From: a virus | Taxonomy: Duplodnaviria; Caudoviricetes | DNA length: 25,343 bases | Strand: one strand, 5' to 3' | IMG/VR virus record: IMGVR_UViG_3300014613_000100 | Coordinates: 1-25,343 of that record | Shown here: piece after piece, positions 3,186-23,336 of the stretch | Numbering within the stretch: the first letter of the stretch is position 1 | How the letters are laid out: each line of letters starts with the position of its first letter | The notes under the pieces: generated by a model | What the model was told of the DNA's origin: nothing | Seen by the model: only the letters and a program-made list of their open reading frames with translations | Databases searched by the model: none | Position numbers and translations under genes: made by a program

Positions 3186-3736
3186 TATTTTAATTCCTTT
3201 ATATTTTCCGGTGTCACTCTATCAAAAAATTCATTCATTTCAAAAAACCAAATATCTTCTAATTTTTCCATACCCCATCCTATATGAATAAACCTTAATC
3301 CTTTAAAATGTGGGTTTAGCTTTGAGTATATTTCAGTATCTATACCAATCCAAGGTGTAGGTAATCCTTTCTTTTTATATATAAGCATTTGTTTTTTATT
3401 AGATTTTTCGGCATCATTGGACACTTGAACCCAAAAACTTTTCAATGGATCAGATATATTATATTTGAAATGTTTATCAAATGATGTGGATTTATAACCA
3501 GATTTACATTCAATACAGAATTTGTTACAAAAATCCTCGGATAGTGGTGAAATTGATCTTATATCACCCGATAAATTTTCAGCGTTTTCTTGTGATATAG
3601 TGGCAATTCCTCCACTAGCAGGTTGTCGCCAAAACAAATAAGGGTTTTCTGTTCCTTGTATCCATTTAGATAGAAATTTACATACCTTCCTTTCCCATTC
3701 CGAACCTTTTCCTTTCCCACTCATATTGTTCTCCAT
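3185..3736 (-). CDS. Holliday junction resolvase-like nuclease (Hjc / PD-(D/E)xK)
   Basis: KGKGSEWER...R.PASGG...GDI...IECKS motif. Confidence 0.8.
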   Translation of the reverse strand: MENNMSGKGKGSEWERKVCKFLSKWIQGTENPYLFWRQPASGGIATISQENAENLSGDIRSISPLSEDFCNKFCIECKSGYKSTSFDKHFKYNISDPLKSFWVQVSNDAEKSNKKQMLIYKKKGLPTPWIGIDTEIYSKLNPHFKGLRFIHIGWGMEKLEDIWFFEMNEFFDRVTPENIKELK

Positions 3737-5615: not shown

Positions 5616-6476
5616 TTATGATCCCCACACATTCATATCGTTTTGTCTTACATTTTCTGTTATACCAACACGTGAAGAATCCATTGATAATTTTTGATTA
5701 ATTTTTTTATCAACCAAATGTTTTATTAAAGTAGATTTTCTTGGAAGACCTCTTGGATTTTCCATTGCAATAGATTTTATATTTATATTCTCCAACACTG
5801 CTTCAGCTTTCCTTGCAATGGCTATTATATCACTAGGTGTACTCCATGTATTAGGGTATGTCCATTTACCCCAACAATCAGGATTATGTTGATGGTAATG
5901 TTGAAAATACTCTAATCCTATTATTTTATGTGTAGATACTTTTACCACTCTATATCCTTCAGTATCAATTCTAAAAATAATATTTGTCAACATCTTCTTT
6001 GACATTTTAGGATTAATATTTTTAAAATCTACAGTTTTTGGCCAATAAATACCTTGGACAAACCATGTATATGAACCATCTCCATGTTGACCTCTAACAA
6101 CAGATAAACCTTGAATGGCATGTTCTATATTAACCTCTGGCATTGAAATGATTGAAGCTATTTTTCTATCATAATCGGCTTTCTTTTTTTCATATGATAA
6201 CTTAAATGTTGATATTAATTGTGAAGTTTCTATACTTCTTTTATTAACTTCATCTCGAATAAATTTCATTTTAGAAACCAATTTCTCTCTAAATTCTTCT
6301 CTTATTTCGTCCTCTATTGATGATATTTCTTCTTGGACCAGATCCATTTTTATTATCTTATTACCAATCCTCATTGATATTCCATTTGTTTTTATAGAGT
6401 CAACAATTTTTTCATCCACCAATCCTAATATTTCTTCTTTTTTCTTATCCATATTTTTTAATATATCTTCCATCAT
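5616..6476 (-). CDS. Coiled-coil plus putative prokaryotic E2-like domain
   Basis: Charged helical N-half; C-half FQHYH....DCWG resembles E2 HPN/HPH...C.G; lies between Ubl and E1. Confidence 0.55.
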   Translation of the reverse strand: MMEDILKNMDKKKEEILGLVDEKIVDSIKTNGISMRIGNKIIKMDLVQEEISSIEDEIREEFREKLVSKMKFIRDEVNKRSIETSQLISTFKLSYEKKKADYDRKIASIISMPEVNIEHAIQGLSVVRGQHGDGSYTWFVQGIYWPKTVDFKNINPKMSKKMLTNIIFRIDTEGYRVVKVSTHKIIGLEYFQHYHQHNPDCWGKWTYPNTWSTPSDIIAIARKAEAVLENINIKSIAMENPRGLPRKSTLIKHLVDKKINQKLSMDSSRVGITENVRQNDMNVWGS

Positions 6477-6559
6477 GGGCTTTAAATTCCTTTATAATGA
6501 TGATGGGTTCCCTTATTATTTTATAAGAGAACCCATAATTATTATCTACCGATTTATAT

Positions 6560-9832: not shown

Positions 9833-9915
9833 TGGAGCCATCACGGGGATTTGAACCCACGATTTCCACCATCCACCATACCAAGGTGGCGTGCTACCAA
9901 TTACACTATGACGGC
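9833..9915 (-). tRNA. tRNA-Thr(GGT) with 7-nt duplication in the variable region
   Basis: Acceptor GCCGTCA/TGATGGC, CCACC-TTGGTAT-GGTGG, GTTCAAATC, encoded CCA. Confidence 0.88.
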
Positions 9916-10403
9916 TTTTTTAGGTAGGATTCAAGAACTTCTAAAGAAACGGGAAAATAATTCCATTGGTCAACACCTACATTGACCACATTTTTTATTC
10001 TCTTGAATAAAGTATGAACATGGCCACAAAACCATGTTTTTTCTGGGGCTACTATAGCACATGCCGGATCATGTCTTAAAATATATCCATCAACTTCCAG
10101 AGCGGTATGGACACTTATGAAACCAACTTCTTCATAATCAAATGGTTTAAATCTATCATGATTTCCAAGTATAAGGTATTTCCTACAATTAATTTTCTTA
10201 ACAAGTGATTCTATATAAGGCTTCTTTTCAGGACCAAAAACGGTTAAATCGCCGATAATAAATAATTCATCTTCCGGTTTTAAAACCTTATTAAAATTTT
10301 TAATAAGGGTTGTATCCATCTTTGCTGTATTCTTAAATGGACGCTTACAAAGTCTAATTATATCGTTTTCACCAAAATGAGTATCCGCGGTAAAATATCG
10401 CAT
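9906..10403 (-). CDS. Calcineurin-like metallophosphoesterase
   Basis: DTHFG, GD, GNHD, RHDP, GHVH motifs. Confidence 0.9.
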   Translation of the reverse strand: MRYFTADTHFGENDIIRLCKRPFKNTAKMDTTLIKNFNKVLKPEDELFIIGDLTVFGPEKKPYIESLVKKINCRKYLILGNHDRFKPFDYEEVGFISVHTALEVDGYILRHDPACAIVAPEKTWFCGHVHTLFKRIKNVVNVGVDQWNYFPVSLEVLESYLKKPS

Positions 10404-10418
10404 TATAAATTCCTTTCT

Positions 10419-10492
10419 TGGAGCCCTTTAGCGGAATTGAACCGCCGTCTTCGGTTTACGGGACCGACATTCTACCAATTAAAATAAAGGGC
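10419..10492 (-). tRNA. tRNA-Thr(CGT), atypical
   Basis: GCCCTTT/AAAGGGC, TCGGT-CCCGTAA-ACCGA, TTCAATT, CCA; about 2 nt short before the D arm, C33. Confidence 0.7.
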
Positions 10493-10495
10493 AAT

Positions 10496-10750
10496 TTAAA
10501 ATACTATTTCATATAAATGTTCTATATAAGTTTTATTGTCATCTAATGCTGTTCCTATATAAACAGAATTATCAGGAATTACACCGCCTGTCATAACAGA
10601 TTGAAATTTTCTATATTCTTTTAATCCTTTTACAACATTCACACTACACCATATCATTAACTTTCCATATTGAAAATCTACTTTCAATATTTCTGTTCCT
10701 ATAGGTAAATCCATAACATTTTTAACTTCATATTTATAAACCTTTCTCAC
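10496..10750 (-). CDS. Hypothetical phage protein
   Basis: 84 aa, GTG start with RBS GGAGG; YIGT...HLYE pattern. Confidence 0.7.
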   Translation of the reverse strand: MRKVYKYEVKNVMDLPIGTEILKVDFQYGKLMIWCSVNVVKGLKEYRKFQSVMTGGVIPDNSVYIGTALDDNKTYIEHLYEIVF

Positions 10751-10770
10751 AATTTACCTCCTAAAATTAT

Positions 10771-11013
10771 TTAAGTATATTTCCACCTTACAATTAAATT
10801 TAACATAAATACCGGCAATACAATTCCAAATGCAAAAAAAGGTGTTATATGTAATAATACCATTCCATACATTTCAGTTTTACCTGGGTTCATAACTTCG
10901 CTAATAGAAAAGGCAAATATCCAGGGTATTATATTATAAGTTGTTGTCCTTATAAGCCCTTCATAAGTATATCTAAAAATAAAACACCTCCTGTTATTCA
11001 AGCCTCCTACCAA
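10771..11013 (-). CDS. Hypothetical membrane protein (start uncertain)
   Basis: Hydrophobic C-terminal segments. Confidence 0.4.
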   Translation of the reverse strand: MVGGLNNRRCFIFRYTYEGLIRTTTYNIIPWIFAFSISEVMNPGKTEMYGMVLLHITPFFAFGIVLPVFMLNLIVRWKYT

Positions 11014-11407
11014 GTAATTCTTCTACTTGGCCTTGATTATTTTTCCATGTTTTAGCTGTTTCTTCATGTGATGCATTTACACCATGAAGAAGTTCCTTAC
11101 ATTCAAATGGTTTAACTGGATGTATCTCGCATAATTCATATTCAGTAAAAAATACACATCTACCTATAGGATTACCAGGATATTCTTTACCTGGTTCCTT
11201 ATCCATAATTGCTGGAGCCAATAAATATATATTTTTAGGATAATTAACCCACCAATCAACCATAAGTTTAGTGTGAAATAATTCTTTCAATGATATATTT
11301 AAATATTCAGCAACCTTTTCAGCTTCACCAGGTATAAACCAACCAGGTTTATAGAAACATGCATTTCTACACCTACGACACTTACATGATTCCTTAGTCC
11401 CTTTCAT
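10994..11407 (-). CDS. YkgJ-family cysteine-cluster (Zn/Fe-S) protein
   Basis: CxCxxCxxxC...CVFF....CEIHPVKPFECK. Confidence 0.75.
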   Translation of the reverse strand: MKGTKESCKCRRCRNACFYKPGWFIPGEAEKVAEYLNISLKELFHTKLMVDWWVNYPKNIYLLAPAIMDKEPGKEYPGNPIGRCVFFTEYELCEIHPVKPFECKELLHGVNASHEETAKTWKNNQGQVEELLGRRLE

Positions 11408-11515
11408 TATATTTTATCCTTTCTTATATAATCCTTTGTAAAACGTTCCAATGTGATGTCTTCCACTTTTCTGTTTGTTTTGTTCCTTTTAAAGCCATAA
11501 TCTATAAAATTTCTC

Positions 11516-12214
11516 CTAATACGGATAATTATATATTTCCATCTTGTTATTATATGCCCAAACCCACATGTCCCTACGGAGTTTTGCCCTATATACTCTA
11601 CCTTCAAACATTCTTTTCAAATTATAAAAAACAATACCTTCGGCCATAACCTTATTGCCCATTTTACCAGAGAAAAGAGAAAATAAATAATCTTTAAACC
11701 ATAAACTCCAATTCTCAAATGTTCTATCATGTTGGTGAAATGATTTATATCTAAGGTGTTTAATAGCCTTTTCAAATGGATACCAAATATTATAATTTAA
11801 ACCATAAATATTTTGTTGAATTTTATTACCTACCACTTCACCGGCTTGTTCTCCGTCTCTTTGAATATAACTCTTTGATATAGCTCTAAAAACTCCTTCT
11901 ATTATAGCAAGTTTACCCTTGGCTTGAAAAAGGTTCAATGGATCAATTTGATTGGTCCTATTGTATAATGAAACCAATTTTCCGTTTTCTGTAAGAAGTT
12001 TTACATTGGTTCCATCAAGTTTTTCTACCGCGAATGTATTAGGATCATCAATTACCCATTCATAACCAGGTGTAACCTCAGGTGTAACCAAATATACTTC
12101 TGGAGATCTTAATTGAAGTTCTTTACCATATTTTATCCAATCATCTCTATTAATTTTATAGGTTTTACGAATAAATGGACAAAGCATTTTTGGATAATTT
12201 GATAATTCTTTCAT
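11516..12214 (-). CDS. ATP-dependent RNA ligase-like nucleotidyltransferase
   Basis: Motif I EKLDGTN, GE, EGIVF, AKLR; no OB domain. Confidence 0.8.
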   Translation of the reverse strand: MKELSNYPKMLCPFIRKTYKINRDDWIKYGKELQLRSPEVYLVTPEVTPGYEWVIDDPNTFAVEKLDGTNVKLLTENGKLVSLYNRTNQIDPLNLFQAKGKLAIIEGVFRAISKSYIQRDGEQAGEVVGNKIQQNIYGLNYNIWYPFEKAIKHLRYKSFHQHDRTFENWSLWFKDYLFSLFSGKMGNKVMAEGIVFYNLKRMFEGRVYRAKLRRDMWVWAYNNKMEIYNYPY

Positions 12215-12426
12215 TTATCCTCCTTTATCCTCCTTTATATATACAACAATATGGGCACATATCATATATTTTTAAACAATAAAATGCTCCACAATTCTCA
12301 CATTTACACATTATCTAACTCCCTCTGCATATCTAAATATTCACCTAAAATTTCACCTGTATTTTTTAATAACAGAAATAGCTAAAGTCCCATCTAAATC
12401 TATATCAGCTCACGATAACATATTTT

Positions 12427-12741
12427 TTATCCTTTCATATATTGTTTTTTCTTTTTCCTTTTTTTCCATGATTTTTTTATAAATAAATCTCCACGAGGAT
12501 ATTCATCCCATGTATCAGGAAGATTCTTTGGTTTTCTTTTACACCGAATTCCACACTGACCTATATGAGCATAATACATTTTTTTTTCTTGTGTGGTTGA
12601 TAACCTTCTATTCCAATTACCTCCTCTAAAACGAAAAATAAAAGGTACAGGATCCATACGAAAACGAAAAAATTGACAAAATTTTTTAATACCAGGAATA
12701 TAAATCCATCTTCCACGATATAAAATTTCACCATATTCCAT
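12427..12741 (-). CDS. Hypothetical basic protein
   Basis: 104 aa, RBS AGGAGG; LPDTWDEYPR...KSWK. Confidence 0.65.
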   Translation of the reverse strand: MEYGEILYRGRWIYIPGIKKFCQFFRFRMDPVPFIFRFRGGNWNRRLSTTQEKKMYYAHIGQCGIRCKRKPKNLPDTWDEYPRGDLFIKKSWKKRKKKKQYMKG

Positions 12742-12922
12742 TTTTTAACCTCCTAAATTTTTAATAAACTTAAAAGGTATCAAACATCCAATAAATCATA
12801 TTATTTCCTTTCTAAAATTAATGGTAAACGGAGGTGACCTGTTCGAGTTTGTGATCTCCACTTTAAGCCTTAGCTGTTGCTGGTACCTCTACACAATTTT
12901 TATATCGTTTACCAAAAAATAA

Positions 12923-12997
12923 TGGAGGTCCTATAGGGAGTCAAACCCTAAACAAATCGTGTTGCGGACGATAGCCTTGTCACTTGGATATAGGACC
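12923..12997 (-). tRNA. tRNA-Cys(GCA), divergent
   Basis: GGTCCTA/TAGGACC, ATCGT-CCGCAAC-ACGAT, U73, CCA; D-loop lacks GG, T-loop TTTGACT. Confidence 0.75.
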
Positions 12998-13149
12998 AAA
13001 ACCGGGAAAGACTTATTCACTAATGTATATCTAGTGGCCACCAGATAAGGTATTAGGGATCCCTCAGCAAAGCCTTCCAACTATTCCTTTATTGGGATCA
13101 TTTTGAGGAGTTGTATAAGAACAACTCAACCCCTTTTATATACTAAAAT

Positions 13150-13241
13150 TGGTACTCCCTCAGGGAGTCGAACCCCGATCTCACACCAATCTAGTGTTTA
13201 CGCCGTATAAAGACGCTGTTTTACCATTAAACTAAGGGAGC
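13150..13241 (-). tRNA. tRNA-Ile(TAT) with long variable arm
   Basis: GCTCCCT/AGGGAGT, GCGTC-TTTATAC-GGCGT, V-arm CACT-AGATT-GGTG, TTCGACT, CCA. Confidence 0.85.
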
Positions 13242-13246
13242 AAAAA

Positions 13247-13935
13247 TTATGGCACAGTGGACTAAAGTACCTGTGCCTTCCAGAATACCGTTAAGGATAT
13301 ATTATCCAAGGCTTTCAGCCCATTTCACAAATATTCCAGAAAAACTGGACAATAATATAGGATTTTTATGATATAAGATTTTCCGGAATTATTATATTAC
13401 TCACAGAAGTCTAATAACCCGTCGGTTGCCCACGGAAACTCCTCATACTCCATTGCCAACTTAATAAAATTGTTGTGGCATTTTTTATTACATCATGAGT
13501 GTACTACCCATTTATAACTGGAAGGACTCGCCACGGGAACCTTCATTACCCATATAATAATGGATCATGGGGCCGACATATTTCAAATATGCTAAAAATA
13601 ACTAAATAGTTATCACGGTTATCCCATAATCCATTATAATTTAGGGAATGAAAAGAGAGATTTGTACTCTCAACGGAGAGACAAGTAACTTGTAATTAAG
13701 TGTTCTCCGAACCTGAACCCGTATGTCTACGATTTGGTGTCATAACATTATAGACATTATGGAGACATTATCGGCCTGATATATATCAGTTCTACCCACA
13801 ATACTTTACATAATATCCTTTCTGTTATGAACGGTCACCTGGGCACAATCCCTGTTCAGTTAAGTTATCGGCCTTATCAACCGACTTTTCCTTACATTTT
13901 CAATTTACTCCCCGCCAGGAGTAAATTTTCCCCAA
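13247..13935 (-). ncRNA. Candidate large structured ncRNA (~690 nt)
   Basis: No ORF >=60 aa, dense hairpins, a long-range helix, dedicated promoter, ends just before a tRNA. Confidence 0.6.
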
Positions 13936-13951
13936 AATCTTTAATATCCTT

Positions 13952-13980
13952 ATTATAACAAAATTTATATAAAAAGTAAA
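13952..13980 (-). promoter_or_regulatory. Promoter TTTACT-N17-TATAAT
   Basis: Motif with extended TG immediately upstream of the ncRNA candidate. Confidence 0.75.
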
Positions 13981-13997
13981 TATTTTATTTTTAAAAG

Positions 13998-14070
13998 AGC
14001 AGATACCCGGATTCGGACCGGAACTTTAGCGTCGGCAACGCCACGTGCTACCATTAAACACCATACCTGC
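13998..14070 (-). tRNA. tRNA-Gly(GCC)
   Basis: GCAGGTA/TATCTGC, TGGCG-TTGCCGA-CGCTA, U73; CCA not encoded. Confidence 0.88.
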
Positions 14071-14283
14071 TTATTCATTGAACTCAAAACCTAATTCTTC
14101 TAAACATTCTACCACAAGGGAATTCCCAATTAGATCACTATCATATTCACAATCCCAATCTTGACTCCATAACGCTTCTATTAAAGTTTTTATAATCTCT
14201 TTTTTATCACCATCATTTATATCCATATATATAATTGGATCAACCACACTATCAAATATATATGTACCTGAACACCATCCCAT
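14071..14283 (-). CDS. Hypothetical phage protein
   Basis: MGWCSGT...QDWDCEYDS; RBS AGGAGG. Confidence 0.7.
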   Translation of the reverse strand: MGWCSGTYIFDSVVDPIIYMDINDGDKKEIIKTLIEALWSQDWDCEYDSDLIGNSLVVECLEELGFEFNE

Positions 14284-14302
14284 TTATATAATCCTCCTTT
14301 AA

Positions 14303-14374
14303 TGATCTTTAGGAAACTCGAACTCCCATCTACGGCTTGAGAGGCTATTATCCTTTCCCGTTAGACGAAAAACC
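14303..14374 (-). tRNA. tRNA-Glu(CTC), degenerate / possible pseudogene
   Basis: CTCTCAA loop, TTCGAGT T-loop; weak acceptor and anticodon stems, no CCA. Confidence 0.55.
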
Positions 14375-14389
14375 TTAAATTAACCAATT

Positions 14390-14472
14390 TGGTAGGGGAA
14401 CCCGGACTCGAACCAGGACGCCCGAAGGCCATGGGCCTAAACCATGTGAGTAGACCGTTCCTCTATTCCCCC
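14390..14472 (-). tRNA. tRNA-Leu(TAG)
   Basis: GGGGGAA/TTCCCCT, CATGG-TTTAGGC-CCATG, V-arm GCC-TTCG-GGC, CCA. Confidence 0.9.
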
Positions 14473-14551
14473 ATATTATCCATATTTTAATGTAATTTTC
14501 TATAATAATTAGAACATAAAATATTACATTTTTATTATAATCCTTTCTTTT

Positions 14552-14643
14552 TGGAAGCGGTGGAAGGATTTGAACCTCCGAGCCCAATTAAAGGCATCCG
14601 GCTTATGAAACCGGCGAGATAGGCCAGACTTCTCAACACCGCA
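14552..14643 (-). tRNA. tRNA-Met(CAT), initiator-like, long variable arm
   Basis: U1xU72 mismatch, A11-U24, CCGGT-TTCATAA-GCCGG, ~18-nt variable region, CCA. Confidence 0.8.
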
Positions 14644-14655
14644 ATATTTAATTTT

Positions 14656-14729
14656 TGGTAGTCCCTCACGGTACTGACCCGTGTTCTCCTGGGTGTAAAC
14701 CAGGTGTTATACATTTCTACTAAGGGACT
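14656..14729 (-). tRNA. tRNA-Val(TAC), atypical T and D loops
   Basis: AGTCCCT/AGGGACT, CCTGG-TTTACAC-CCAGG, T-loop GTCAGTA, CCA. Confidence 0.8.
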
Positions 14730-14737
14730 ATAATTAC

Positions 14738-14899
14738 TTATTTTATCATAAGATGGCCAAAATGTAAAGTTCCTTTTTGGCAATTTGGACACCAAAACCA
14801 TTCAGTATGATTGATAAATTCTGATACAATATACTTTTCAACACTATGTCCGCACATTCCATAACAATCATACCTAATTTTTTTCAATAATTTTTTCAT
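14738..14899 (-). CDS. Small Zn-finger-like hypothetical protein
   Basis: MKKLLKK start after tRNA-Gly; CGH...CPNC. Confidence 0.5.
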   Translation of the reverse strand: MKKLLKKIRYDCYGMCGHSVEKYIVSEFINHTEWFWCPNCQKGTLHFGHLMIK

Positions 14900-14909
14900 T
14901 TTATTTCCT

Positions 14910-14984
14910 TGGAGCGGGTACATGGATTTAAACCATGACCTAGAGATTGGAAATCTCCTATGCTATCATTAACACCATACCCGC
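14910..14984 (-). tRNA. tRNA-Gly(TCC)
   Basis: GCGGGTA/TACCCGC, GGAGA-TTTCCAA-TCTCT, CCA. Confidence 0.88.
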
Positions 14985-14987
14985 TTA

Positions 14988-15239
14988 TTAGATATTCAAA
15001 ATAAAAATATTCTTACGTTTTGCTTTTTTACCTACCATTAATTCTGTAAATCCTTTAGGAATTTCTTTATCCCATCCATTTTTCTTTGCCTGTGATGTAG
15101 ATGGAAAAATTCCAGCATTTTTTATTATATGTGCCATAATCCAATTATCTTTTATTTCTATGAAAAAATCAGTAGGCCCAACAGGACCAAAAAATAAATC
15201 TTTATCTTTATCCGTTACATTCTTATTGATAAAATTCAT
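14988..15239 (-). CDS. Stand-alone S4-like RNA-binding domain protein
   Basis: AHIIKNAGIFPSTSQAKKNG...VGKK resembles the TyrRS C-terminal S4 motif. Confidence 0.5.
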   Translation of the reverse strand: MNFINKNVTDKDKDLFFGPVGPTDFFIEIKDNWIMAHIIKNAGIFPSTSQAKKNGWDKEIPKGFTELMVGKKAKRKNIFILNI

Positions 15240-15267
15240 AACATCACCTTTCTTTCATGAAAAATAA

Positions 15268-15810
15268 CTATTTTAACTTGTTATTTATGGTTGCCCATGA
15301 TACTCCTAACTTAATTGCTATTTGATTCTTGGACATTATTTTTCTCATTTCAAGTAAATCAATATTATCCCAATCTGCTTTCCATTGACTTTTTATATAA
15401 CATTCTCTAGAACAATTTTTCTGTGTTGTAGGTTTTTCTCTACCACATACACAACATAAGTCTTTCTTAACATCTATTTTAAATGCCACACGGTAATCTG
15501 TAAAATCATCATTAAACATCAATGCATTATCAGGAACATATATATATCCATATTCAATCAATCTATGACAATTAGCGCATACCATAACACATTTTTTTAA
15601 CTCATTGACTATACGTTTCCATGCTATATTATTTGCTCTGATTGCTCCTAATCCAAACTCTTTTTCAGTTGGGTCCAAATGATGGAAGTCAAATACTTCA
15701 TCCTGAAATTCGTTTCTACAACAACAACATTTCCTCCCAAATGCATCCACCATACGTTCTTTTGTTCTTTTTCTCCATGCCTTTACTGCCTCACTATTTT
15801 TACTCATCAT
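15268..15810 (-). CDS. HNH endonuclease
   Basis: C..C...FDFHHLDP...KCVMVCANCHR, C-terminal Zn finger and HTH; RBS GAGGAGG; TATAAATA upstream at 15842-15849. Confidence 0.85.
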   Translation of the reverse strand: MMSKNSEAVKAWRKRTKERMVDAFGRKCCCCRNEFQDEVFDFHHLDPTEKEFGLGAIRANNIAWKRIVNELKKCVMVCANCHRLIEYGYIYVPDNALMFNDDFTDYRVAFKIDVKKDLCCVCGREKPTTQKNCSRECYIKSQWKADWDNIDLLEMRKIMSKNQIAIKLGVSWATINNKLK

Positions 15811-15881
15811 ACCCTCCTCATAAAATAACATTCTCTGTTATTATTTATACAAGTACGATGATTTTTCCTTAAAATTTTGAG

Positions 15882-15970
15882 CTGCCGGGGCTGGGATCGA
15901 ACCAGCGCACCGTTTTCACGGATTACACTTGCTTAACAGGCAAGCCGCTTGCCAACTAGCGTACCCGGCA
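15882..15970 (-). tRNA. tRNA-Asn(GTT) with long variable arm
   Basis: TGCCGGG/CCCGGCA, G73, CTTGC-CTGTTAA-GCAAG, V-arm CCGT-GAAA-ACGG; no CCA. Confidence 0.85.
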
Positions 15971-15995
15971 AAAATTTTTTTATCTAACTTTCCTT

Positions 15996-16024
15996 ATTAT
16001 AACAAAATTTGATTAAAATGTAAA
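15996..16024 (-). promoter_or_regulatory. Promoter TTTACA-N17-TATAAT
   Basis: Exact motif upstream of tRNA-Asn. Confidence 0.7.
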
Positions 16025-16246
16025 TTATACTGTTTTCTTCAAACCTACTATTACGGAGAATATATCTGGTGTAGAACCATCATATTCTTCAATATCTGTA
16101 AACTCCCAAAAATTTACAACTTCTCCTAAATTTTCGGCAATAGCTTTAATTAAACTACCATCAACATTATGTCCTTCATATACCTTATTATTGTATATAT
16201 AAAGAACACTCCAATCACCATCAGGCACTGAAACAACATTATACAT
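16025..16246 (-). CDS. Hypothetical protein
   Basis: 73 aa, RBS AGGAG. Confidence 0.65.
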   Translation of the reverse strand: MYNVVSVPDGDWSVLYIYNNKVYEGHNVDGSLIKAIAENLGEVVNFWEFTDIEEYDGSTPDIFSVIVGLKKTV

Positions 16247-16252
16247 TTTATT

Positions 16253-16555
16253 TTACTCCTTATCTAATTCTTGTACATATTTACAATAAGGACATTTTAT
16301 CCATAAGACATCTTCATATCCATCGGCATAAGCAAAACATACATTTTCAATATCAGGTTTAAAATCATTATTACAATTAGAACAAAGTATTGTAAAGGTT
16401 TTAATTTCTTCTATAATGTTATCAATTTTTCCTATACTTACTGAAAATGGAGCACAATCAATATGTCCTAACATATTTTCTTCCACCATATTATATATTT
16501 CTTCTTTTGTATATTCATCATCTAAATCAATTATAATTTCTACAATGTATTTCAT
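16253..16555 (-). CDS. Hypothetical protein with Zn ribbon
   Basis: CSNC...CPYC; RBS AAGGA. Confidence 0.65.
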   Translation of the reverse strand: MKYIVEIIIDLDDEYTKEEIYNMVEENMLGHIDCAPFSVSIGKIDNIIEEIKTFTILCSNCNNDFKPDIENVCFAYADGYEDVLWIKCPYCKYVQELDKE

Positions 16556-16581
16556 CTTTCTTCCTTTCTATAATTTAAAAG

Positions 16582-16943
16582 TGGAGACGGCCGGAATCGA
16601 ACCGGCGTCCGCAAATTATCAACTTCAGTTGGATTACAATCATTATGGGTTATAATTTCTTTATATACCATGTTAAACCCACATTACATTAATATATGCA
16701 CCTGTTTAAATTGTCGGAAAATAAAGAATAACAGGAATTCAAAATCTCTTACCTTTCTAATCGGTACCTTTATAAATCCGAAAGGAAAACTTACAAGGCA
16801 GATCATTTAAGCCGCTATGGCTAGATCGTAACTATAATCGTCTGCAATTATATTTAAGTTGGTCATGTTTATAACGGGTTACATGCCATCCCGTAATTGC
16901 AACCTACATCTCATTATCCACGTCGAATACCATTTACGTCCCC
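16582..16943 (-). ncRNA. ssrA: tmRNA
   Basis: 5' GGGGACGTAAATGGTATTCGAC, 3' T-arm plus CGTCTCC-A with G3.U70; tag frame 16845-16807 encodes ADDYSYDLAIAA*. Confidence 0.95.
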
Positions 16944-17164
16944 TAATTTATACAAACCGCATTTATTTCTTTTCCTTCTAAATCCTCATCTTGGTACCAT
17001 CCACCATCATCATCATCATCAAGATGTCCTCTGGAAGGAAACCATAACACGTCTTCATAAGAATTTCCTTCATCATCACCTGCATAAACCGTCTTCATAT
17101 CAGAACATTCAGGATAATCTTTTAAAAATTCATTCAAAGATTTCACATATTCACCAAATTTCAT
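16943..17164 (-). CDS. Hypothetical acidic protein
   Basis: 73 aa, DDEGNSY...NAVCIN; RBS GGAGG. Confidence 0.7.
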   Translation of the reverse strand: MKFGEYVKSLNEFLKDYPECSDMKTVYAGDDEGNSYEDVLWFPSRGHLDDDDDGGWYQDEDLEGKEINAVCIN

Positions 17165-17188
17165 TTAATTTCCTCCATATTAATTTTC

Positions 17189-17398
17189 CTAATAATCTTT
17201 ACCTTCTATCGGAGGTTCATTATGACAAATACATCCATAATAATTACAATCAGGCATAAGCCAAGCAAAATCTCCACCACAAGTACAATTAGTAAGGACT
17301 ATTAAACAACCTTTATCAATTGCTTCCTTAAAAGATTTTGTTCGTTTATTTATTATTTTAACCTCTTTATCAATTACTTCTTTAAAATATTCATTCAT
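17189..17398 (-). CDS. Hypothetical Cys-containing protein
   Basis: CTCGG...GCICHN; RBS AAGGA. Confidence 0.6.
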   Translation of the reverse strand: MNEYFKEVIDKEVKIINKRTKSFKEAIDKGCLIVLTNCTCGGDFAWLMPDCNYYGCICHNEPPIEGKDY

Positions 17399-17412
17399 AA
17401 TTATTCCTTTCT

Positions 17413-17487
17413 TGGAGCCTCCTAACGGAATCGAACCGATTTCTCAAACTTACAAGGCTAGTATTCTACCAATTAAACTAAGGAGGC
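17413..17487 (-). tRNA. tRNA-Thr(TGT)
   Basis: GCCTCCT/AGGAGGC, CTTGTAA loop (one stem mismatch), TTCGATT, CCA. Confidence 0.85.
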
Positions 17488-17635
17488 TCAAATCACGTTA
17501 TTATAATTAAATTATTATTTTTTTACCTTTCTTTTCTTTTCCTTGTTAAAATTTTTAGGAAGAAGTTTTTCGGGCATTATTGGACCAATAAATTTAGGTA
17601 GTTTTATCACTTTTTCCATATTTTATCCTTTCTTT

Positions 17636-17709
17636 TGGAAGCCCTATTAGGATTCGAACCTAAACAATGAGAGTCAAGGTCTCATATGCTACCATTACAT
17701 CATAGAGCT
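17636..17709 (-). tRNA. tRNA-Gln(TTG)
   Basis: AGCTCTA/TAGGGCT, TGAGA-CCTTGAC-TCTCA, TTCGAAT, CCA. Confidence 0.88.
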
Positions 17710-17738
17710 ATTATATCAAATTTTATAGTAAATGTAAA
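17710..17738 (-). promoter_or_regulatory. Promoter-like TTTACA-N17-TATAAT abutting tRNA-Gln
   Basis: Exact motif, but the start site would fall inside the tRNA. Confidence 0.45.
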
Positions 17739-17744
17739 CTTTTT

Positions 17745-17794
17745 TAGTAGAAATAATGGGAGTCGAACCCACACTATATAGATATTACATCACT
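17745..17794 (-). pseudogene. tRNA remnant / minihelix (acceptor plus T-arm only)
   Basis: GTGGG-TTCGACT-CCCAT then TATTTCT-A-CTA; imperfect 5' partner AGTGATG only 15 nt upstream. Confidence 0.45.
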
Positions 17795-17842
17795 GAAATC
17801 GTGTGGCGCTTATAAACCCACGGAGGATTATGGCCACTAATT

Positions 17843-17920
17843 TGGTAGGCGATCCCGGAATCGAACCGGGAAACATTGGATTTTAAGTCCAACAGGTATA
17901 CCAATTCCCATCAATCACCC
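17843..17920 (-). tRNA. tRNA-Leu(TAA) with short variable loop
   Basis: GGGTGAT/ATCGCCT, TTGGA-CTTAAAA-TCCAA, 5-nt variable loop, CCA. Confidence 0.88.
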
Positions 17921-18023
17921 ATGAAAAATGTATTTATTACATTTAATTTTCTTAATTCATTATCTATCCTTTTTCCTATTTGAAATAACCACTTAACTTA
18001 TATCAATTTCATAACATAATTGT

Positions 18024-18097
18024 TGGTAGTCGGAGAAGGAATTGAACCTTCATTAAACGCTCATCAGGCGCTTTTCTTGCCGTTAGAAGACCCGACT
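18024..18097 (-). tRNA. tRNA-Ile(GAT)
   Basis: AGTCGGG/TCCGACT, AGCGC-CTGATGA-GCGTT, CCA. Confidence 0.88.
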
Positions 18098-18134
18098 ATA
18101 AAATTTAGCCCTTTATTCAACTTAGAAGAAAAAT

Positions 18135-18289
18135 TGGTAATGAGAAGAGGAATCGAACCTCTTATTAGTATTTAGCCACCGATTGGGGTCAGTTACACCA
18201 CCTCATAAGTTACTAACTTATTATTTGGCACCATACATCATATAGTAACCCGGTTCTTACTCGGAAAACTATAGCAACCAGCACCCATC
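18135..18289 (-). ncRNA. 155-nt tRNA-like RNA (acceptor, T-arm, CCA; no D or anticodon arm)
   Basis: 5' GATGGG pairs with CTCATT-A-CCA; AGAGG-TTCGATT-CCTCT; internal hairpins. Confidence 0.6.
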
Positions 18290-18335
18290 AAAATTTGGTA
18301 CGACCTCTCCGAATAGAATTCTTCCATCAAAAACT

Positions 18336-18411
18336 TGGTGCGACCTCTCCGAGTTGAACGGAGTTCTTCGGGGTTTCAAGCCGATGTAATTACCCAATCT
18401 ACGAAAGTCGC
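18336..18411 (-). tRNA. tRNA-Phe(GAA)
   Basis: GCGACTT/AGGTCGC, TTGAAAC loop, CTCCG-TTCAACT-CGGAG, CCA. Confidence 0.85.
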
Positions 18412-18497
18412 ATATGTTTCAAAAAATCATCTTTTAATAAACAGGTTTTTTTACCTCTTTTCTTACCCCATTTAGATAGATTATTTTTATTTAAGAG

Positions 18498-18578
18498 CGG
18501 AAGAGACAGGAATCGAACCCGCTACGCTATTATACGCCAGAGCTTTCAAAACTCTTTATCCCCATGGACGACTCTTCC
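18498..18578 (-). tRNA. tRNA-Ser(TGA), very short D loop
   Basis: GGAAGAG/CTCTTCC, G73, AGAGT-TTTGAAA-GCTCT, long variable region; no CCA. Confidence 0.8.
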
Positions 18579-18614
18579 ATATTAACATAAACTATCATAA
18601 TTGTAAACTAAAAT

Positions 18615-18690
18615 TGGCACTCCTGACAGGATTCGGACCTGCATTATCCCTGGTTCGTAACCAGGCGCTGTTCCGTTCAGCTACAGGAGT
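18615..18690 (-). tRNA. tRNA-Arg(ACG)
   Basis: ACTCCTG/CAGGAGT, CCTGG-TTACGAA-CCAGG, CCA. Confidence 0.9.
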
Positions 18691-18696
18691 ATTTAT

Positions 18697-18772
18697 TGGT
18701 GGACCAGATTCGGATTCGAACCGAAACTTACTGGATGCAAGCCAGTCGTGCTCCCATTAACACTATCAGCCC
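18697..18772 (-). tRNA. tRNA-Ala(TGC), G3.U70, bulged acceptor
   Basis: GGGCTGA/TCTGGTCC, ACTGG-CTTGCAT-CCAGT, CCA. Confidence 0.85.
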
Positions 18773-18811
18773 ATAAATATTTATAAATCAAACTTCATTA
18801 TTTCTAAAAAG

Positions 18812-18894
18812 AGCCCTCAACAGGAATCGAACCTGCATGCGTCCGTTACGTTATTATTAATGCGCGGCTTAGAAGGCCGTAACGCTATGAGGGC
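18812..18894 (-). tRNA. tRNA-Arg(TCT)-like, no canonical D-arm
   Basis: GCCCTCA/TGAGGGC, CGGC-CTTCTAA-GCCG, GCAGG-TTCGATT-CCTGT; about 7 nt between acceptor and anticodon arm. Confidence 0.75.
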
Positions 18895-19049
18895 AAAATT
18901 ATACTCCGGGAATTCCATATATATCTATAGGTATCTTTCATATATACAGGAGTGATGCAAACCCGAAGAAAACGCTTATTATCACCCAGTTTGGATGTCT
19001 AATGAGATAATCCCTTATAGGATATCCGAAAAGACATATTTTTAAATTT

Positions 19050-19125
19050 TGGTGGGAGCGGAGAGAATCGAACTCATCTGTGCCCAGGTTAAAAGCCTGG
19101 TGCCATACCAGTTGGCTACACTCCC
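19050..19125 (-). tRNA. tRNA-Lys(TTT)
   Basis: GGGAGTG/CGCTCCC, CCAGG-CTTTTAA-CCTGG, CCA. Confidence 0.9.
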
Positions 19126-19159
19126 ATTACTTTGCCACTAAGTTATACACTTATAATAT

Positions 19160-19233
19160 TGGTGGGTTTATGAAGAATCGAACTCCAGTTTACCGGGTAA
19201 GAACCGGCCACTTTACCACTAAGTTATAAACCC
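19160..19233 (-). tRNA. tRNA-Lys(CTT)
   Basis: GGGTTTA/TAAACCC, GCCGG-TTCTTAC-CCGGT, CCA. Confidence 0.9.
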
Positions 19234-19241
19234 ATGAAAGT

Positions 19242-19318
19242 TGGTGGGCCGGAAGGGAATCGAACCCTTAACTTCCACCTTGCAAGGGTGGCACTCTCCC
19301 TAATTGAGTTACCGGGCC
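19242..19318 (-). tRNA. tRNA with TGC (Ala) anticodon lacking G3.U70
   Basis: GGCCCGG/CCGGCCC (C3xC70), CCACC-CTTGCAA-GGTGG, CCA. Confidence 0.85.
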
Positions 19319-19325
19319 AAAAGTT

Positions 19326-19399
19326 TGGTAATCCCAAGGGGAATTGGACCCCTGTCTTCAGGTTGAAAGCCTGATATTCTACCACTAAACTATGGGACT
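19326..19399 (-). tRNA. tRNA-Glu(TTC)
   Basis: AGTCCCA/TGGGATT, TCAGG-CTTTCAA-CCTGA, CCA. Confidence 0.88.
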
Positions 19400-19407
19400 A
19401 AAATTTT

Positions 19408-19482
19408 TGGTCGCGGAGCTCGGATTCGAACCGAGATCAGAGCGATCCAAACGCCCCATGCTACCGTTAGCACCACTCCACG
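19408..19482 (-). tRNA. tRNA-Pro(TGG)
   Basis: CGTGGAG/CTCCGCG, GGGCG-TTTGGAT-CGCTC, CCA. Confidence 0.88.
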
Positions 19483-19602
19483 AAAGTTATTATAAATGAC
19501 GCCCTACACCATACCAAAAGGATAGATTCAGCAAGTTTTGTCTGGTATCATTTGTCTTGCTATCCAATGGGCACATGTCCCATTTACATCATTTATATAT
19601 TT

Positions 19603-19677
19603 TGGCGGTCCCAACGGGATTTGGACCCGCTCTAAAAGATCGACAATCTTTCGTGCTACCGTTAACACTATGGAACC
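19603..19677 (-). tRNA. tRNA-Asp(GTC)
   Basis: GGTTCCA/TGGGACC, G73, AAAGA-TTGTCGA-TCTTT, CCA. Confidence 0.9.
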
Positions 19678-20081: not shown

Positions 20082-20110
20082 ATTATAACATAAATTCAAA
20101 ATAATGTAAA
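20082..20110 (-). promoter_or_regulatory. Promoter TTTACA-N17-TATAAT
   Basis: Exact motif; about 38 bp near-identical to the 23151-23179 promoter. Confidence 0.75.
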
Positions 20111-20121
20111 TTTATTAATTT

Positions 20122-20207
20122 TGGTGCGTGGACAGGGAATCGAACCCCCAAGGCATCCACCTTACTTTAGCCAAGTGATTTACAGTCACCTGTAAGGAAA
20201 TCCACAC
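20122..20207 (-). tRNA. tRNA-Tyr(GTA)-like, no canonical D-arm
   Basis: GTGTGGA/TCCACGC, GGTGA-CTGTAAA-TCACT, TTCGATT, A73-CCA; D-arm replaced by TTTCCTTACA. Confidence 0.8.
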
Positions 20208-20212
20208 ATTAT

Positions 20213-20398
20213 TTATACTTGTATTAACATATCACCATTAGTAATTTTTACTTTATAACCTATTTTTGGTATAAATCCATAACACTTACTTATATATAAT
20301 CCAATAATTGCATTATCTTCGGTTTTAGTATAAACAATAACATCAGAATCATTGGCACCATATTCATTTGTAATTTCTATAATCTTTCCATACCTCAT
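20213..20398 (-). CDS. Hypothetical protein
   Basis: 61 aa, RBS AAGGA. Confidence 0.55.
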   Translation of the reverse strand: MRYGKIIEITNEYGANDSDVIVYTKTEDNAIIGLYISKCYGFIPKIGYKVKITNGDMLIQV

Positions 20399-20414: not shown

Positions 20415-20488
20415 TGGCGAGTCCTGAAGGATTTGAACCCTCATTAATCGGTCTGGAGCCGATCGTGGTACCATTACACTAAAGACCC
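20415..20488 (-). tRNA. tRNA-Trp(CCA)
   Basis: GGGTCTT/AGGACTC, ATCGG-CTCCAGA-CCGAT, G73-CCA. Confidence 0.9.
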
Positions 20489-20495: not shown

Positions 20496-20583
20496 TGGGG
20501 TAATGAACGGGATTTGAACCCGCACGTCCTTTACGGACACAAGGGCCACAGCCTTGCGCGGCTACCATTTCGCCATCATTACC
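20496..20583 (-). tRNA. tRNA-His(GTG) with G-1 and long variable arm
   Basis: G-1:C73, GTAATGA/TCATTAC, CAAGG-CTGTGGC-CCTTG, V-arm GTCC..GGAC. Confidence 0.88.
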
Positions 20584-20585
20584 GT

Positions 20586-20652
20586 AAACAAAAAGAGGTT
20601 TCTACTTTTATGGTAGAAACCCCTTAACACCTCTATTATTTTGGTTTCTACC
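20586..20652 (-). promoter_or_regulatory. Terminator/antiterminator (attenuator)
   Basis: GGTAGAAACC (20652-20643) and GTAGAAACCTC (20605-20595) compete for GGGGTTTCTACC (20623-20612); terminator followed by TTTTTGTTT. Confidence 0.75.
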
Positions 20653-20784
20653 TTATGTATTATCTCCTATTAATGACCATCCATTAATTTGTTCATTATA
20701 AGAGGCCAGGAATATATGAACAAAAATAAGACCATCTATAGATTGTTTATTATCAAATTTTTGTTTTAAATTATAAATTTTCAT
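20653..20784 (-). CDS. Putative 43-aa leader peptide MKIYNLKQKFDNKQSIDGLIFVHIFLASYNEQINGWSLIGDNT
   Basis: RBS GAAAGGA; stop codon abuts the antiterminator strand. Confidence 0.65.
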   Translation of the reverse strand: MKIYNLKQKFDNKQSIDGLIFVHIFLASYNEQINGWSLIGDNT

Positions 20785-20812
20785 ATTTTTCCTTTCGTTT
20801 AATTTCTATATT

Positions 20813-20843
20813 TATTTATATCACAAATAGGTTTTTTTGTAAA
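20813..20843 (-). promoter_or_regulatory. Promoter TTTACA-N17-TATAAA, also containing T4-late-like TATAAATA
   Basis: Motif upstream of the leader ORF. Confidence 0.65.
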
Positions 20844-21024
20844 CTTTTTATATTATTTATATATGGCGGGATTCCACACTCCGCTCCTGTCCTTACCATG
20901 TGTTGCAAATCACATTAAAATACCGCGTCATGACAATTATATTCATATACTTATGACCTTTGTGGTAGGTGTAATGATATAAACGGTATTCTTACCAGGC
21001 CCACAGTCACCTCATATATAAAAT

Positions 21025-21398: not shown

Positions 21399-21535
21399 TA
21401 ACCGGAACAGGATTCAAACTTATACTATGTAACGTTATTAATTACCGCGCCTTATGCGTCTACCAATGGTAAAATGGCAAGCCTTACCAGCCGTCCACTT
21501 ATTGTGCGCTTACTTGCCAATTTCGCCACCCAGCC
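21399..21535 (-). pseudogene. Degenerate tRNA-like element with structured insertion
   Basis: GGCTGGG-TG-GCGAAATTGGCA...TTGGTAGACGC, weak T-arm with TTTGAAT, no clear anticodon arm. Confidence 0.45.
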
Positions 21536-21585
21536 TCACTATATTATATTTTCATACCATTCTTTTTCCACATACAAAACAATAT

Positions 21586-22304: not shown

Positions 22305-23117
22305 TTATGCCGTCCGCCTATCTTCCCAGTAATATAGATCGGTAGCCAGTCTGTTTATGTTATTAAAACGGTTGCTAAATACATTAGACCCTTTTTGTGC
22401 CTTAGTTTCATGTGTGGCTAAATAAGTAAGGACATTAAATGCGCCCCACTTATTTTCATCTAATTTCTCAAGGTTAAGAATTGGATGAAATTTATCTTTT
22501 ACATCATTACCAACCTTCTCAGTAATATATTTTTTATCGTCAACAAACCTATCAAACATTTCCTTATTAAAAGGAATTTTCACCCATTCTCTCCAACCTT
22601 CAACCTGATCTTTGAAAAGGTCAAACTTCATTTCGAAGGATTCTCGAAGTTTTTCTGGGTTCCCAACATAATGGCCAAGTGACTCGGAGAAAATTTTCTG
22701 TTTTCCTGATACCATACCATTTTTACAGAACCATCTATACCCCATCAAATTATAACCAAATGAAGTGCGTCCGGTCAATCCATTAAAAATTTCAAGTAAC
22801 ACACCAACAATATCACCTTTACCATTAATATCAAAATTTAAAGAATCATCACCAAAAACAATATGGCGTTTCCATCTCTTTGTGTTGGCATCAAGATGGT
22901 CGATAGTCTCCTTGACCTCAAGGTCTTGGATTGCTTCCTGAAAAAGGCTATTTATTTCAGAATTTTCAACAATTTCATAATCCTTCCCCACAAGGCCCAG
23001 AACATCATTGGTTTCATCATTGATAAGGGCAAATTTACCTGTATCAATTTGAGAACCGGCGGTAATAACACATTCTTTTCTTACCGGGAAAAACGGATTT
23101 CTTTCTTCCTTATACAT
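22305..23117 (-). CDS. DUF932/DUF945-like phage/plasmid protein
   Basis: LGLVGKDYEIVEN, N...G.TSF, RWFCKNGM, WGAFNVLT...TH; start moved to MYKEER (RBS GGGGAG) since a promoter lies in the longer ORF. Confidence 0.75.
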   Translation of the reverse strand: MYKEERNPFFPVRKECVITAGSQIDTGKFALINDETNDVLGLVGKDYEIVENSEINSLFQEAIQDLEVKETIDHLDANTKRWKRHIVFGDDSLNFDINGKGDIVGVLLEIFNGLTGRTSFGYNLMGYRWFCKNGMVSGKQKIFSESLGHYVGNPEKLRESFEMKFDLFKDQVEGWREWVKIPFNKEMFDRFVDDKKYITEKVGNDVKDKFHPILNLEKLDENKWGAFNVLTYLATHETKAQKGSNVFSNRFNNINRLATDLYYWEDRRTA

Positions 23118-23150
23118 ATATTTTATCTCCCCATTCAATTTAATAAGTTC

Positions 23151-23179
23151 ATTGTAACATAAATTCAGAATAATGTAAA
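23151..23179 (-). promoter_or_regulatory. Promoter TTTACA-N17-TACAAT
   Basis: Near-copy of the 20082-20110 promoter. Confidence 0.7.
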
Positions 23180-23189
23180 TCAAAAAATT

Positions 23190-23336
23190 TGTTATGTAAT
23201 CTCTATAGGGAGCAAGATTTCCGTGTGAAGGATAAAAACAATACACATCTTACGTCTCCTGATATCCAGGCGACTTCGTGGTACTTATTTATGAATTTTA
23301 ACCACTACGGTCCATCCCTATAGACATCACATAACA
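23190..23336 (-). ncRNA. Candidate multibranch structured RNA
   Basis: 22-nt terminal inverted repeat with 2 differences enclosing three hairpins; strand inferred from context. Confidence 0.45.

What the first reader, a model, noticed from the sequence alone, without database searches (positions are those of the whole stretch)
20583..20843. Leader-peptide attenuator gating phage tRNA genes (putative translation-stress sensor)
Seen: promoter, then RBS and a 43-codon ORF using 17 amino acids (including His, Trp, Tyr; no Arg, Cys, Pro), stop codon immediately followed by GGTAGAAACC, which is perfectly complementary to the 5' arm of an 11-bp U-tailed terminator ending 2 nt before tRNA-His. Established: trp/his-type attenuation logic. 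Inference: a ribosome reaching the stop masks the antiterminator so transcription ends; stalling from tRNA loss (e.g. host anticodon nucleases) frees it and switches on the tRNAs. Caveat: internal promoters (e.g. 20082-20110) mean only His, Trp, a small ORF and Tyr depend strictly on it; downstream genes would only gain read-through.
Basis: partly seen in the sequence, partly recalled or inferred. Interest (0 to 1): 0.85.

Follow-up and report, generated by a model that had tools for sequence, protein, structure and literature searches.

The report
Ribosome-sensing switch before phage tRNAs
A short reading frame whose stop codon abuts an either/or RNA hairpin sits in front of this uncultured phage's tRNA genes and in 11 relatives, and it likely lets transcription run on into the tRNA genes when ribosomes decode slowly.

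Summary
The anatomy is real: promoter, ribosome-binding site, 43-codon ORF, a 10-base antiterminator strand right after the stop, and a U-tailed terminator 2 bases before tRNA-His. The layout recurs, with largely different sequence, at the head of the tRNA array in 11 related uncultured T4-like phages; all 8 examined arrays of 10 or more genes downstream of the DUF932 marker gene have it. The three RNA strands co-vary, and 0 of 123 other terminator-like hairpins combine both features. The peptide is weakly conserved while synonymous sites change less than in the neighbouring gene, and all 12 leaders have Trp. Best reading (0.75): a ribosome-coupled transcription attenuator that reads through when translation stalls. 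It is closer to mycobacterial whiB7 than to trp/his: no codon run, no predicted anti-antiterminator. Corrections: this window's 17 amino acids are ordinary (P=0.59); its 'tRNA-Tyr' lacks a D arm; internal promoters limit the switch's reach; the trigger (tRNA nucleases) and expression are untested. My paper searches found no published case for tRNA genes. This scan has reported the same kind of element in 34 findings on other genomes.

The parts
20838..20843 (-). -35-like hexamer TTTACA, the motif of this phage's early-type promoters
   Evidence: same motif upstream of the leader in most relatives
20813..20820 (-). TATAAATA box 17 bases downstream of the -35 hexamer; doubles as -10 element and T4-late-type box (late consensus recalled)
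   Evidence: box present before the leader in relatives (one mismatch in L054); gp55 late-sigma homolog in the record of L080
20854..20861 (-). second, upstream TATAAATA box
20790..20794 (-). Shine-Dalgarno-like AAGGA, 5 bases before ATG
   Evidence: similar motif before all 12 leaders
20653..20784 (-). leader ORF, 43 codons plus TAA; single His codon 20718-20716, single Trp codon 20679-20677
   Evidence: no Pfam, PHROG or protein homolog other than itself
20643..20652 (-). antiterminator 5' strand GGTAGAAACC, bases +1 to +10 after the stop
20625..20638 (-). weak 5-pair inner hairpin inside the antiterminator loop; a comparable one is predicted in only 1 of 11 relatives
20612..20621 (-). shared strand: pairs with either the antiterminator strand or the terminator's 3' arm
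20586..20625 (-). intrinsic terminator: stem-loop 20625-20593 with U-rich tail to 20586
20496..20583 (-). tRNA-His(GTG) with encoded G-1 and a long variable arm; first gated gene
20415..20488 (-). tRNA-Trp(CCA), second gated gene
20213..20398 (-). 61-aa ORF of unknown function inside the gated stretch
20122..20207 (-). tRNA-Tyr(GTA)-like RNA without a D arm; the strand at the D position can pair with the loop of a long variable arm
20082..20110 (-). first internal early-type promoter (TTTACA-17-TG-TATAAT); others start at 18607, 17738, 16024, 14768, 13980, 9816
9833..19677 (-). rest of the array: tRNA genes and tmRNA (16581-16943), plus an RNA-ligase-like gene (11516-12214) and a metallophosphoesterase gene (9906-10403); would gain read-through only
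22305..23246 (-). DUF932 gene, the synteny marker used to find relatives; not part of the switch

Best explanation
The element is likely a ribosome-coupled transcription attenuator at the head of the phage tRNA array: a ribosome that reaches the leader's stop codon would cover the antiterminator strand so the terminator forms, while a ribosome that stalls earlier, or never loads, would leave it free and let transcription continue into tRNA-His, tRNA-Trp and beyond. Shown: the parts, their order and spacing, the mutually exclusive predicted folds, and their conservation in 11 relatives. Inferred: that the ORF is translated, that the host couples translation to transcription, that the antiterminator survives until polymerase passes the U tail, and that the signal is loss of usable tRNA. 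More tRNA cures tRNA loss but not amino-acid starvation, so a negative feedback loop on tRNA supply is the most sensible reading. The peptide itself probably has no function; Trp is the one codon always present. Only His, Trp, a small ORF and the odd Tyr RNA lie before the next internal early-type promoter.
For: Same layout at the array head in 12 of 21 loci examined (window copy included), and in 8 of 8 arrays of 10 or more genes lying downstream of DUF932. Geometry fixed in 11 of 11 leaders modelled: antiterminator starts 0 to +8 after the stop, terminator arm at +26 to +33, U tail at +56 to +74. Antiterminator, shared strand and 3' arm change together at several positions across 8 lineages, and the antiterminator differs from the 3' arm in 7 of 8, so it is not a fresh duplicate. 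0 of 123 other hairpins have both features. With a 13-base ribosome footprint (recalled value), predicted antiterminator probability in the window is 0.04 with the ribosome at the stop and 0.90-0.99 three or more codons earlier. Leader pN/pS is 0.45-0.88 against 0.09-0.19 for DUF932, and leader pS is lower than DUF932 pS in 10 of 11 matched pairs. Trp is in 8 of 8 lineages against 3.3 expected, P=0.0008 before correction for 19 tests. Codon variety is above chance in 7 of 11 relatives. Precedent: a single Trp codon confers Trp sensing in the whiB7 uORF, and loss of its start codon raises read-through.
Against: The window's own leader is not codon-rich (23 kinds, P=0.79; GC3 0.10) and lacks Arg and Pro codons although the array has Arg and Pro tRNAs. 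In the free equilibrium fold the terminator wins in 10 of 12 leaders, so the switch would need kinetic control. In the five-member L029 group the modelled masking at the stop is only partial (0.29-0.51, 4 modelled). With no anti-antiterminator, quick ribosome release at the stop could give high basal read-through. Six internal early-type promoters and three TATAAATA boxes lie inside the array. The one array found independently of DUF932 (L236) shows a terminator, an overlapping hairpin and a stop at its foot, but no clear RBS, no TATAAATA box and no Trp. The host is unknown, so coupling is assumed. The lineages share ancestry, so P values overstate independence.
Confidence: 0.75

Rival explanations
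1. Fixed leak valve: the competing hairpin only sets a constant fraction of read-through, and leader translation does not respond to stress.
For: The window's leader has ordinary amino-acid and codon variety. The antiterminator is weaker than the terminator in most relatives.
Against: A fixed leak needs no ORF, yet an RBS-led ORF ends within a ribosome footprint of the antiterminator in all 12. Trp is kept in all 12 and synonymous change is low.
Confidence: 0.1
2. Trp-specific sensor, either through the single Trp codon alone or through a TnaC-like arrest peptide (TnaC recalled).
For: Trp is the only residue clearly over-represented. tRNA-Trp is the first gene in 6 of 8 lineages and second in the window (read).
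Against: Trp lies 5 to 36 residues before the end of the peptide and no C-terminal motif is shared. Codon variety is high in 7 of 11 relatives. In the L029 group Gly tRNAs come first.
Confidence: 0.08
3. The switch once worked but has decayed in this particular phage.
For: Lowest codon variety relative to chance of the 12 leaders, GC3 0.10, three amino acids missing; several internal promoters downstream.
Against: RBS, open frame, Trp and His codons and a perfect 10-pair antiterminator are intact, and it is one of 2 of 12 where the antiterminator wins at equilibrium.
Confidence: 0.04
4. The hairpins serve RNA processing or a protein antiterminator, and the ORF is an unrelated small gene ending at an ordinary terminator.
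For: The terminator also closes the upstream gene block (no other strong minus-strand terminator between 23285 and 20625). The U tail is only 2 bases from tRNA-His.
Against: Tail-to-tRNA distance varies among relatives while stop-to-antiterminator distance is fixed. The peptide is hardly conserved. No Rfam family matches.
Confidence: 0.03

Closest known systems
whiB7/wblC uORF transcription attenuator of mycobacteria (bioRxiv 10.1101/2023.06.02.543512; abstract and sections 3 and 7 read)
   Same: Translated uORF of mixed composition; efficient translation gives an intrinsic terminator, stalling gives an antiterminator; a single Trp codon suffices; loss of the start codon raises read-through; the M. 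smegmatis uORF has every amino acid but Cys, as do 6 of these 12 leaders.
   Different: Controls a protein regulator in a bacterial chromosome. No sequence relationship was tested. Here the output is phage tRNA and tmRNA genes, which would feed back directly on the sensed quantity, and no Ala enrichment is seen.
his operon leader attenuator of Salmonella (PMC4046918; passages read), and trp, phe, thr, leu leaders (recalled)
   Same: Ribosome position on a short leader chooses between antiterminator and intrinsic terminator; ribosome at the stop means termination.
   Different: his has 16 codons with 7 His in a row and an A:B hairpin that makes termination the untranslated default. Here 27-55 codons, no control-codon run and no predicted anti-antiterminator.
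pheM-pheST attenuator and tufB speed sensing of enterobacteria (recalled, not read)
   Same: Translation efficiency controls genes of the translation machinery.
   Different: Outputs are a synthetase or EF-Tu, not tRNA genes; tufB control is recalled as Rho-dependent.
Phage tRNA regions that counter tRNA-cleaving defences, e.g. T5/SP15 tRNA-Tyr against retron-Eco7 (PMC11555353, passages; PMC10264068, start of abstract and two passages)
   Same: Phage tRNA arrays as an answer to host tRNA destruction; expression level decides rescue.
   Different: In the passages read, expression is set by a strong promoter; the word stem 'attenuat' does not occur in PMC11555353.

Membership tests
Ribosome-mediated transcription attenuator (general class) | Short ORF with ribosome-binding site downstream of a promoter | tested here: met
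Ribosome-mediated transcription attenuator (general class) | Intrinsic terminator before the first regulated gene | tested here: met
   (sequence and predicted fold only)
Ribosome-mediated transcription attenuator (general class) | Mutually exclusive antiterminator within reach of the ribosome | tested here: met
Ribosome-mediated transcription attenuator (general class) | The ORF is translated and read-through depends on it | not testable with these tools
   indirect support only
Ribosome-mediated transcription attenuator (general class) | Host couples translation to transcription | not testable with these tools
   host not identified
trp/his-type amino-acid attenuator | Run or strong excess of one control codon | tested here: not met
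   one Trp and one His codon in the window; mixed composition in all 12
trp/his-type amino-acid attenuator | Anti-antiterminator hairpin, so the untranslated leader terminates | tested here: not met
   best ORF:antiterminator duplex -2.3 to -7.9 against -11.6 to -22.7 kcal/mol for antiterminator:terminator arm; antiterminator probability 0.87-1.0 without a ribosome in 11 of 11; his default
trp/his-type amino-acid attenuator | Downstream genes make the sensed amino acid | tested here: not met
   downstream genes are tRNAs
whiB7-like general stall sensor | Leader samples many amino acids or codons | tested here: inconclusive
   window no (P=0.59, 0.79); codon variety above chance in 7 of 11 relatives, amino-acid variety in 2 of 11
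whiB7-like general stall sensor | Read-through when translation fails to start | tested here: inconclusive
   predicted by folding only
whiB7-like general stall sensor | Upstream of whiB7/wblC in Actinobacteria | tested here: not met
   phage tRNA array; it works like whiB7 but is not a member
T-box or other Rfam riboregulator | Match to a curated covariance model | tested here: not met
TnaC-like arrest peptide | Conserved residues at fixed distance from the stop (recalled) | tested here: not met
   Trp 5-36 residues from the end; no shared C-terminal motif

The most novel reading that the evidence does not exclude
This phage clade runs an inducible counter-defence: a codon-sampling leader measures how well the infected cell still decodes, and boosts the whole block of tRNA, tmRNA and RNA-repair genes when host tRNAs are cut or depleted, shutting off again as phage tRNA restores translation. 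The logic is useful enough that one relative appears to have rebuilt it on the stop codon of an ordinary HU gene in front of a second tRNA array.
Probability: 0.4. Interest if true: 0.87.

Novelty: new variant of a known kind. Interest (0 to 1): 0.72.

Why it matters
Why phages carry tRNAs is an old question, and recent work ties them to tRNA-cleaving defences. A switch that turns tRNA genes on when decoding slows would show that phages sense that damage, and would separate the 'replace lost tRNA' model from constitutive codon compensation. The element is about 260 bases and needs only ribosomes and RNA polymerase, so a reporter in a laboratory strain can test it directly. I found no published attenuator whose output is tRNA genes.

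Tried and rejected
Leader peptide search: only itself; no PHROG or Pfam match. Exact-motif scans of viral contigs found only chance hits or loci already held (of 105 loci, 3 were known members and none new). The 118-aa ORF gave no related locus. No close cultured relative by DNA, clamp loader or DUF932. Five cultured large phages (Mel-JY01, RsoM2USA, PA5oct, Phosso, XacN1): 10 stretches around their tRNA genes, 119 hairpins at looser thresholds, none with this layout at an array head; some dispersed tRNA genes of Phosso were not covered. The idea that leaders lack Cys because the phage lacks tRNA-Cys failed: G001 and G002 have tRNA-Cys in the array and Cys-free leaders, and Cys scarcity is not significant (P=0.13). 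Matching leader codons to phage anticodons was not computed because the near-complete tRNA set makes it uninformative. Sequencing runs: no RNA holder listed; contigs laid showed no variant in the leader. A paper search for the tmRNA tag gave nothing, so the host stays unknown. Stretches 20858-21005 and 21400-21545 looked tRNA-like or structured by eye but fold no better than shuffles and match no Rfam family. A pyrBI-type opposite polarity (recalled) was rejected because the terminator arm starts 26-33 bases past the stop, beyond a ribosome footprint.

Full report
Setting. The window is a fragment of a large uncultured T4-like phage: clamp loader, RusA-like resolvase, exonuclease and thymidylate synthase genes, with the nearest cultured clamp loaders at about 33% identity. 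All tRNA genes lie on the minus strand between 20583 and 9833: 23 tRNAs plus tmRNA by default ARAGORN, 26 plus tmRNA at a relaxed threshold. The finding sits at the head of this array.

Observation. The antiterminator folds at -17.6 and the terminator at -16.9 kcal/mol; they share 20621-20612 and exclude each other. No Rfam family covers the leader.

Relatives. The leader peptide has no homolog but itself, so I used the neighbouring DUF932 gene as a synteny marker. Of 90 loci then held, 32 had tRNA calls. I left out 5 duplicates and 6 loci with one or two doubtful calls and read the 420 bases before the first tRNA in the other 21. Twelve, one of them the window's own record L008, show promoter, RBS, 27-55-codon ORF, stop, antiterminator strand, terminator, U tail and first tRNA. 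The 9 without it hold only 1-4 tRNA genes in the stored DNA. All 8 arrays of 10 or more genes downstream of DUF932 have it. The 12 fall into about 8 lineages; L029, L054, L061, L077 and L081 form one, and L015 and L060 are close.

The geometry is fixed while sequence changes. In 11 leaders modelled (L061 left out as near-identical to L029) the antiterminator starts 0 to 8 bases after the stop, the terminator arm at +26 to +33 and the U tail at +56 to +74. Across 8 lineages the three strands change together at several positions; the antiterminator differs from the terminator's 3' arm in 7 of 8 and reaches beyond the terminator stem in 6 of 8, so it is not a fresh duplicate (in the window the 9 shared columns are identical). 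As a control I scanned the window and 52 of the 101 loci then held (short contigs, duplicates and unrelated hits dropped) and found 134 distinct terminator-like hairpins. Eleven are these array heads. Of the other 123, 3 have a competing helix of -8.9 kcal/mol or stronger, 1 has a short RBS-led ORF ending beside its best helix, and none has both. Thresholds were chosen after seeing the elements.

What the ORF is selected for. In 11 matched pairs, leader pN/pS is 0.45-0.88 against 0.09-0.19 for DUF932, and leader pS is lower than DUF932 pS in 10 of 11 (17-34 synonymous sites per pair, pairs not independent, N-terminal alignment uncertain). That fits selection on codons and frame more than on a peptide product, though RNA-level constraint could also lower pS. 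Trp occurs in 12 of 12 leaders, 8 of 8 lineages against 3.3 expected (P=0.0008, about 0.015 after 19 tests); His in 7 of 8 (P=0.03, not significant after correction). Codon variety exceeds chance in 7 of 11 relatives, for example 42 kinds in 51 codons in L029; amino-acid variety does so in 2 of 11.

Mechanism. Masking 13 bases from the start of the A-site codon (recalled footprint), the predicted antiterminator probability in the window is 0.04 with the ribosome on the stop, 0.62 two codons earlier, 0.90-0.99 three or more codons earlier and 0.99 with no ribosome. Six other leaders give 0.00-0.01 at the stop; the four L029-group leaders modelled give 0.29-0.51. No ORF segment competes for the antiterminator strand, so failure to translate is predicted to mean read-through. 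At equilibrium the terminator wins in 10 of 12, so most relatives would need the antiterminator to persist kinetically. I infer negative feedback: slow decoding, more tRNA, faster decoding, termination. tRNA loss is the likelier trigger because extra tRNA does not cure amino-acid starvation; this is reasoning, not a test.

Reach. Six early-type promoters and three TATAAATA boxes lie inside the window's array, so only His, Trp, a 61-aa ORF and the Tyr-like RNA precede the next early-type promoter. My scan found one minus-strand terminator-like hairpin between 20593 and 4064, a weak one inside tRNA-Phe (one search lists 7 weaker ones down to 10000), so read-through could add to the whole array, tmRNA, an RNA-ligase-like gene (below Pfam's cut-off) and a phosphoesterase. 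In L003, L038 and L081 the leader's TATAAATA is the only such box within the stored part of the array or at its head. A T4 gp55 homolog was found in 2 of 5 partial relatives, one carrying the leader, so late transcription may pass through the switch; the late consensus is recalled.

Independent checks. A tmRNA-tag scan gave 13 loci, 12 new, of which one (L236) has a tRNA array. Its head has a terminator 26 bases before tRNA-Trp, an overlapping hairpin and a stop codon at the hairpin's foot, but no clear RBS, box or Trp: a partial match. Five cultured large phages showed no such layout in the stretches read. The record of L080 has a second array preceded, two ORFs upstream, by an HU gene whose stop overlaps a 13-pair antiterminator.

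Comparison with what is known. The his leader has 7 His codons in a row and terminates by default when untranslated (PMC4046918, passages); this element meets neither feature, so it is not a trp/his-type member although it uses the same stop-codon masking. The whiB7 uORF is the closer working model (bioRxiv 10.1101/2023.06.02.543512, abstract and sections 3 and 7). Phage tRNAs are known to counter tRNA nucleases, with expression strength deciding rescue (PMC11555353, passages; PMC10264068, two passages). PMC10914365 reports conditional termination in phage 5' regions without linking it to tRNA genes in the passages read. Seven searches (listings and abstract starts only) showed no leader-peptide attenuator on tRNA genes. 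The library lacks most subscription papers and I read no supplements, where predicted phage uORFs or RNA motifs could be listed. This scan has 34 earlier findings with the same key words in other genomes (8 shown); they are unchecked AI notes, were leads only, and none shares sequence with this locus.

Verdict. Observation confirmed. A ribosome-coupled attenuator on a phage tRNA array is the best explanation (0.75). It is a new variant of a known kind, unpublished as far as my searches reach, testable with a small reporter; interest 0.72.

Noticed in passing
window 20122-20207 (-); L094 about 6447-6540 (+), L096 about 3366-3460 (+), L097 about 12190-12285 (-), L077 about 16840-16935 (+): A tRNA-Tyr(GTA)-like RNA without a D arm recurs in 5 of 13 sources scanned. 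The strand at the D position can pair with the loop of a long variable arm: 4 of 6 pairs change on both sides, 86% of cells paired in 5 sequences (structure drawn by me from these sequences). ARAGORN misses it or calls it Gly. No paper found in one search; the scan has noted similar RNAs elsewhere.
   Followed up: partly
L098 7306-7650 (+), record G004: An HU-type DNA-binding protein gene ends with its stop codon inside a 13-pair antiterminator that competes with a U-tailed terminator, two ORFs upstream of a second array of 16 tRNA genes; possibly the same switch built on an ordinary gene.
   Followed up: partly
window 20496-20583 (-): tRNA-His has a long, class II-type variable arm; 6 His tRNAs of relatives do not. 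An Arthrobacter phage tRNA-His is 80% alike.
   Followed up: partly
window 16581-16943 (-); L003, L085, L236: Phage-encoded tmRNA genes whose tags all begin ADDY; might point to the host group, not resolved.
   Followed up: partly
window 9906-12214 (-): RNA-ligase-like and metallophosphoesterase genes lie among the last tRNA genes, reminiscent of a tRNA repair pair.
   Followed up: no
window 15268-15831 (-): HNH endonuclease gene inside the tRNA array.
   Followed up: no
window 21400-21545 (-): Starts like a tRNA-Leu by eye with an insertion in the D loop, but folds no better than shuffles and matches no Rfam family; perhaps a decayed tRNA upstream of the leader.
   Followed up: partly
L096 16667 (+): ARAGORN at a relaxed threshold calls a tRNA with anticodon CTA (amber) in relative G003.
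   Followed up: no
L236 13450-13780: A run of short imperfect repeats upstream of the array head, origin-like in appearance.
   Followed up: no
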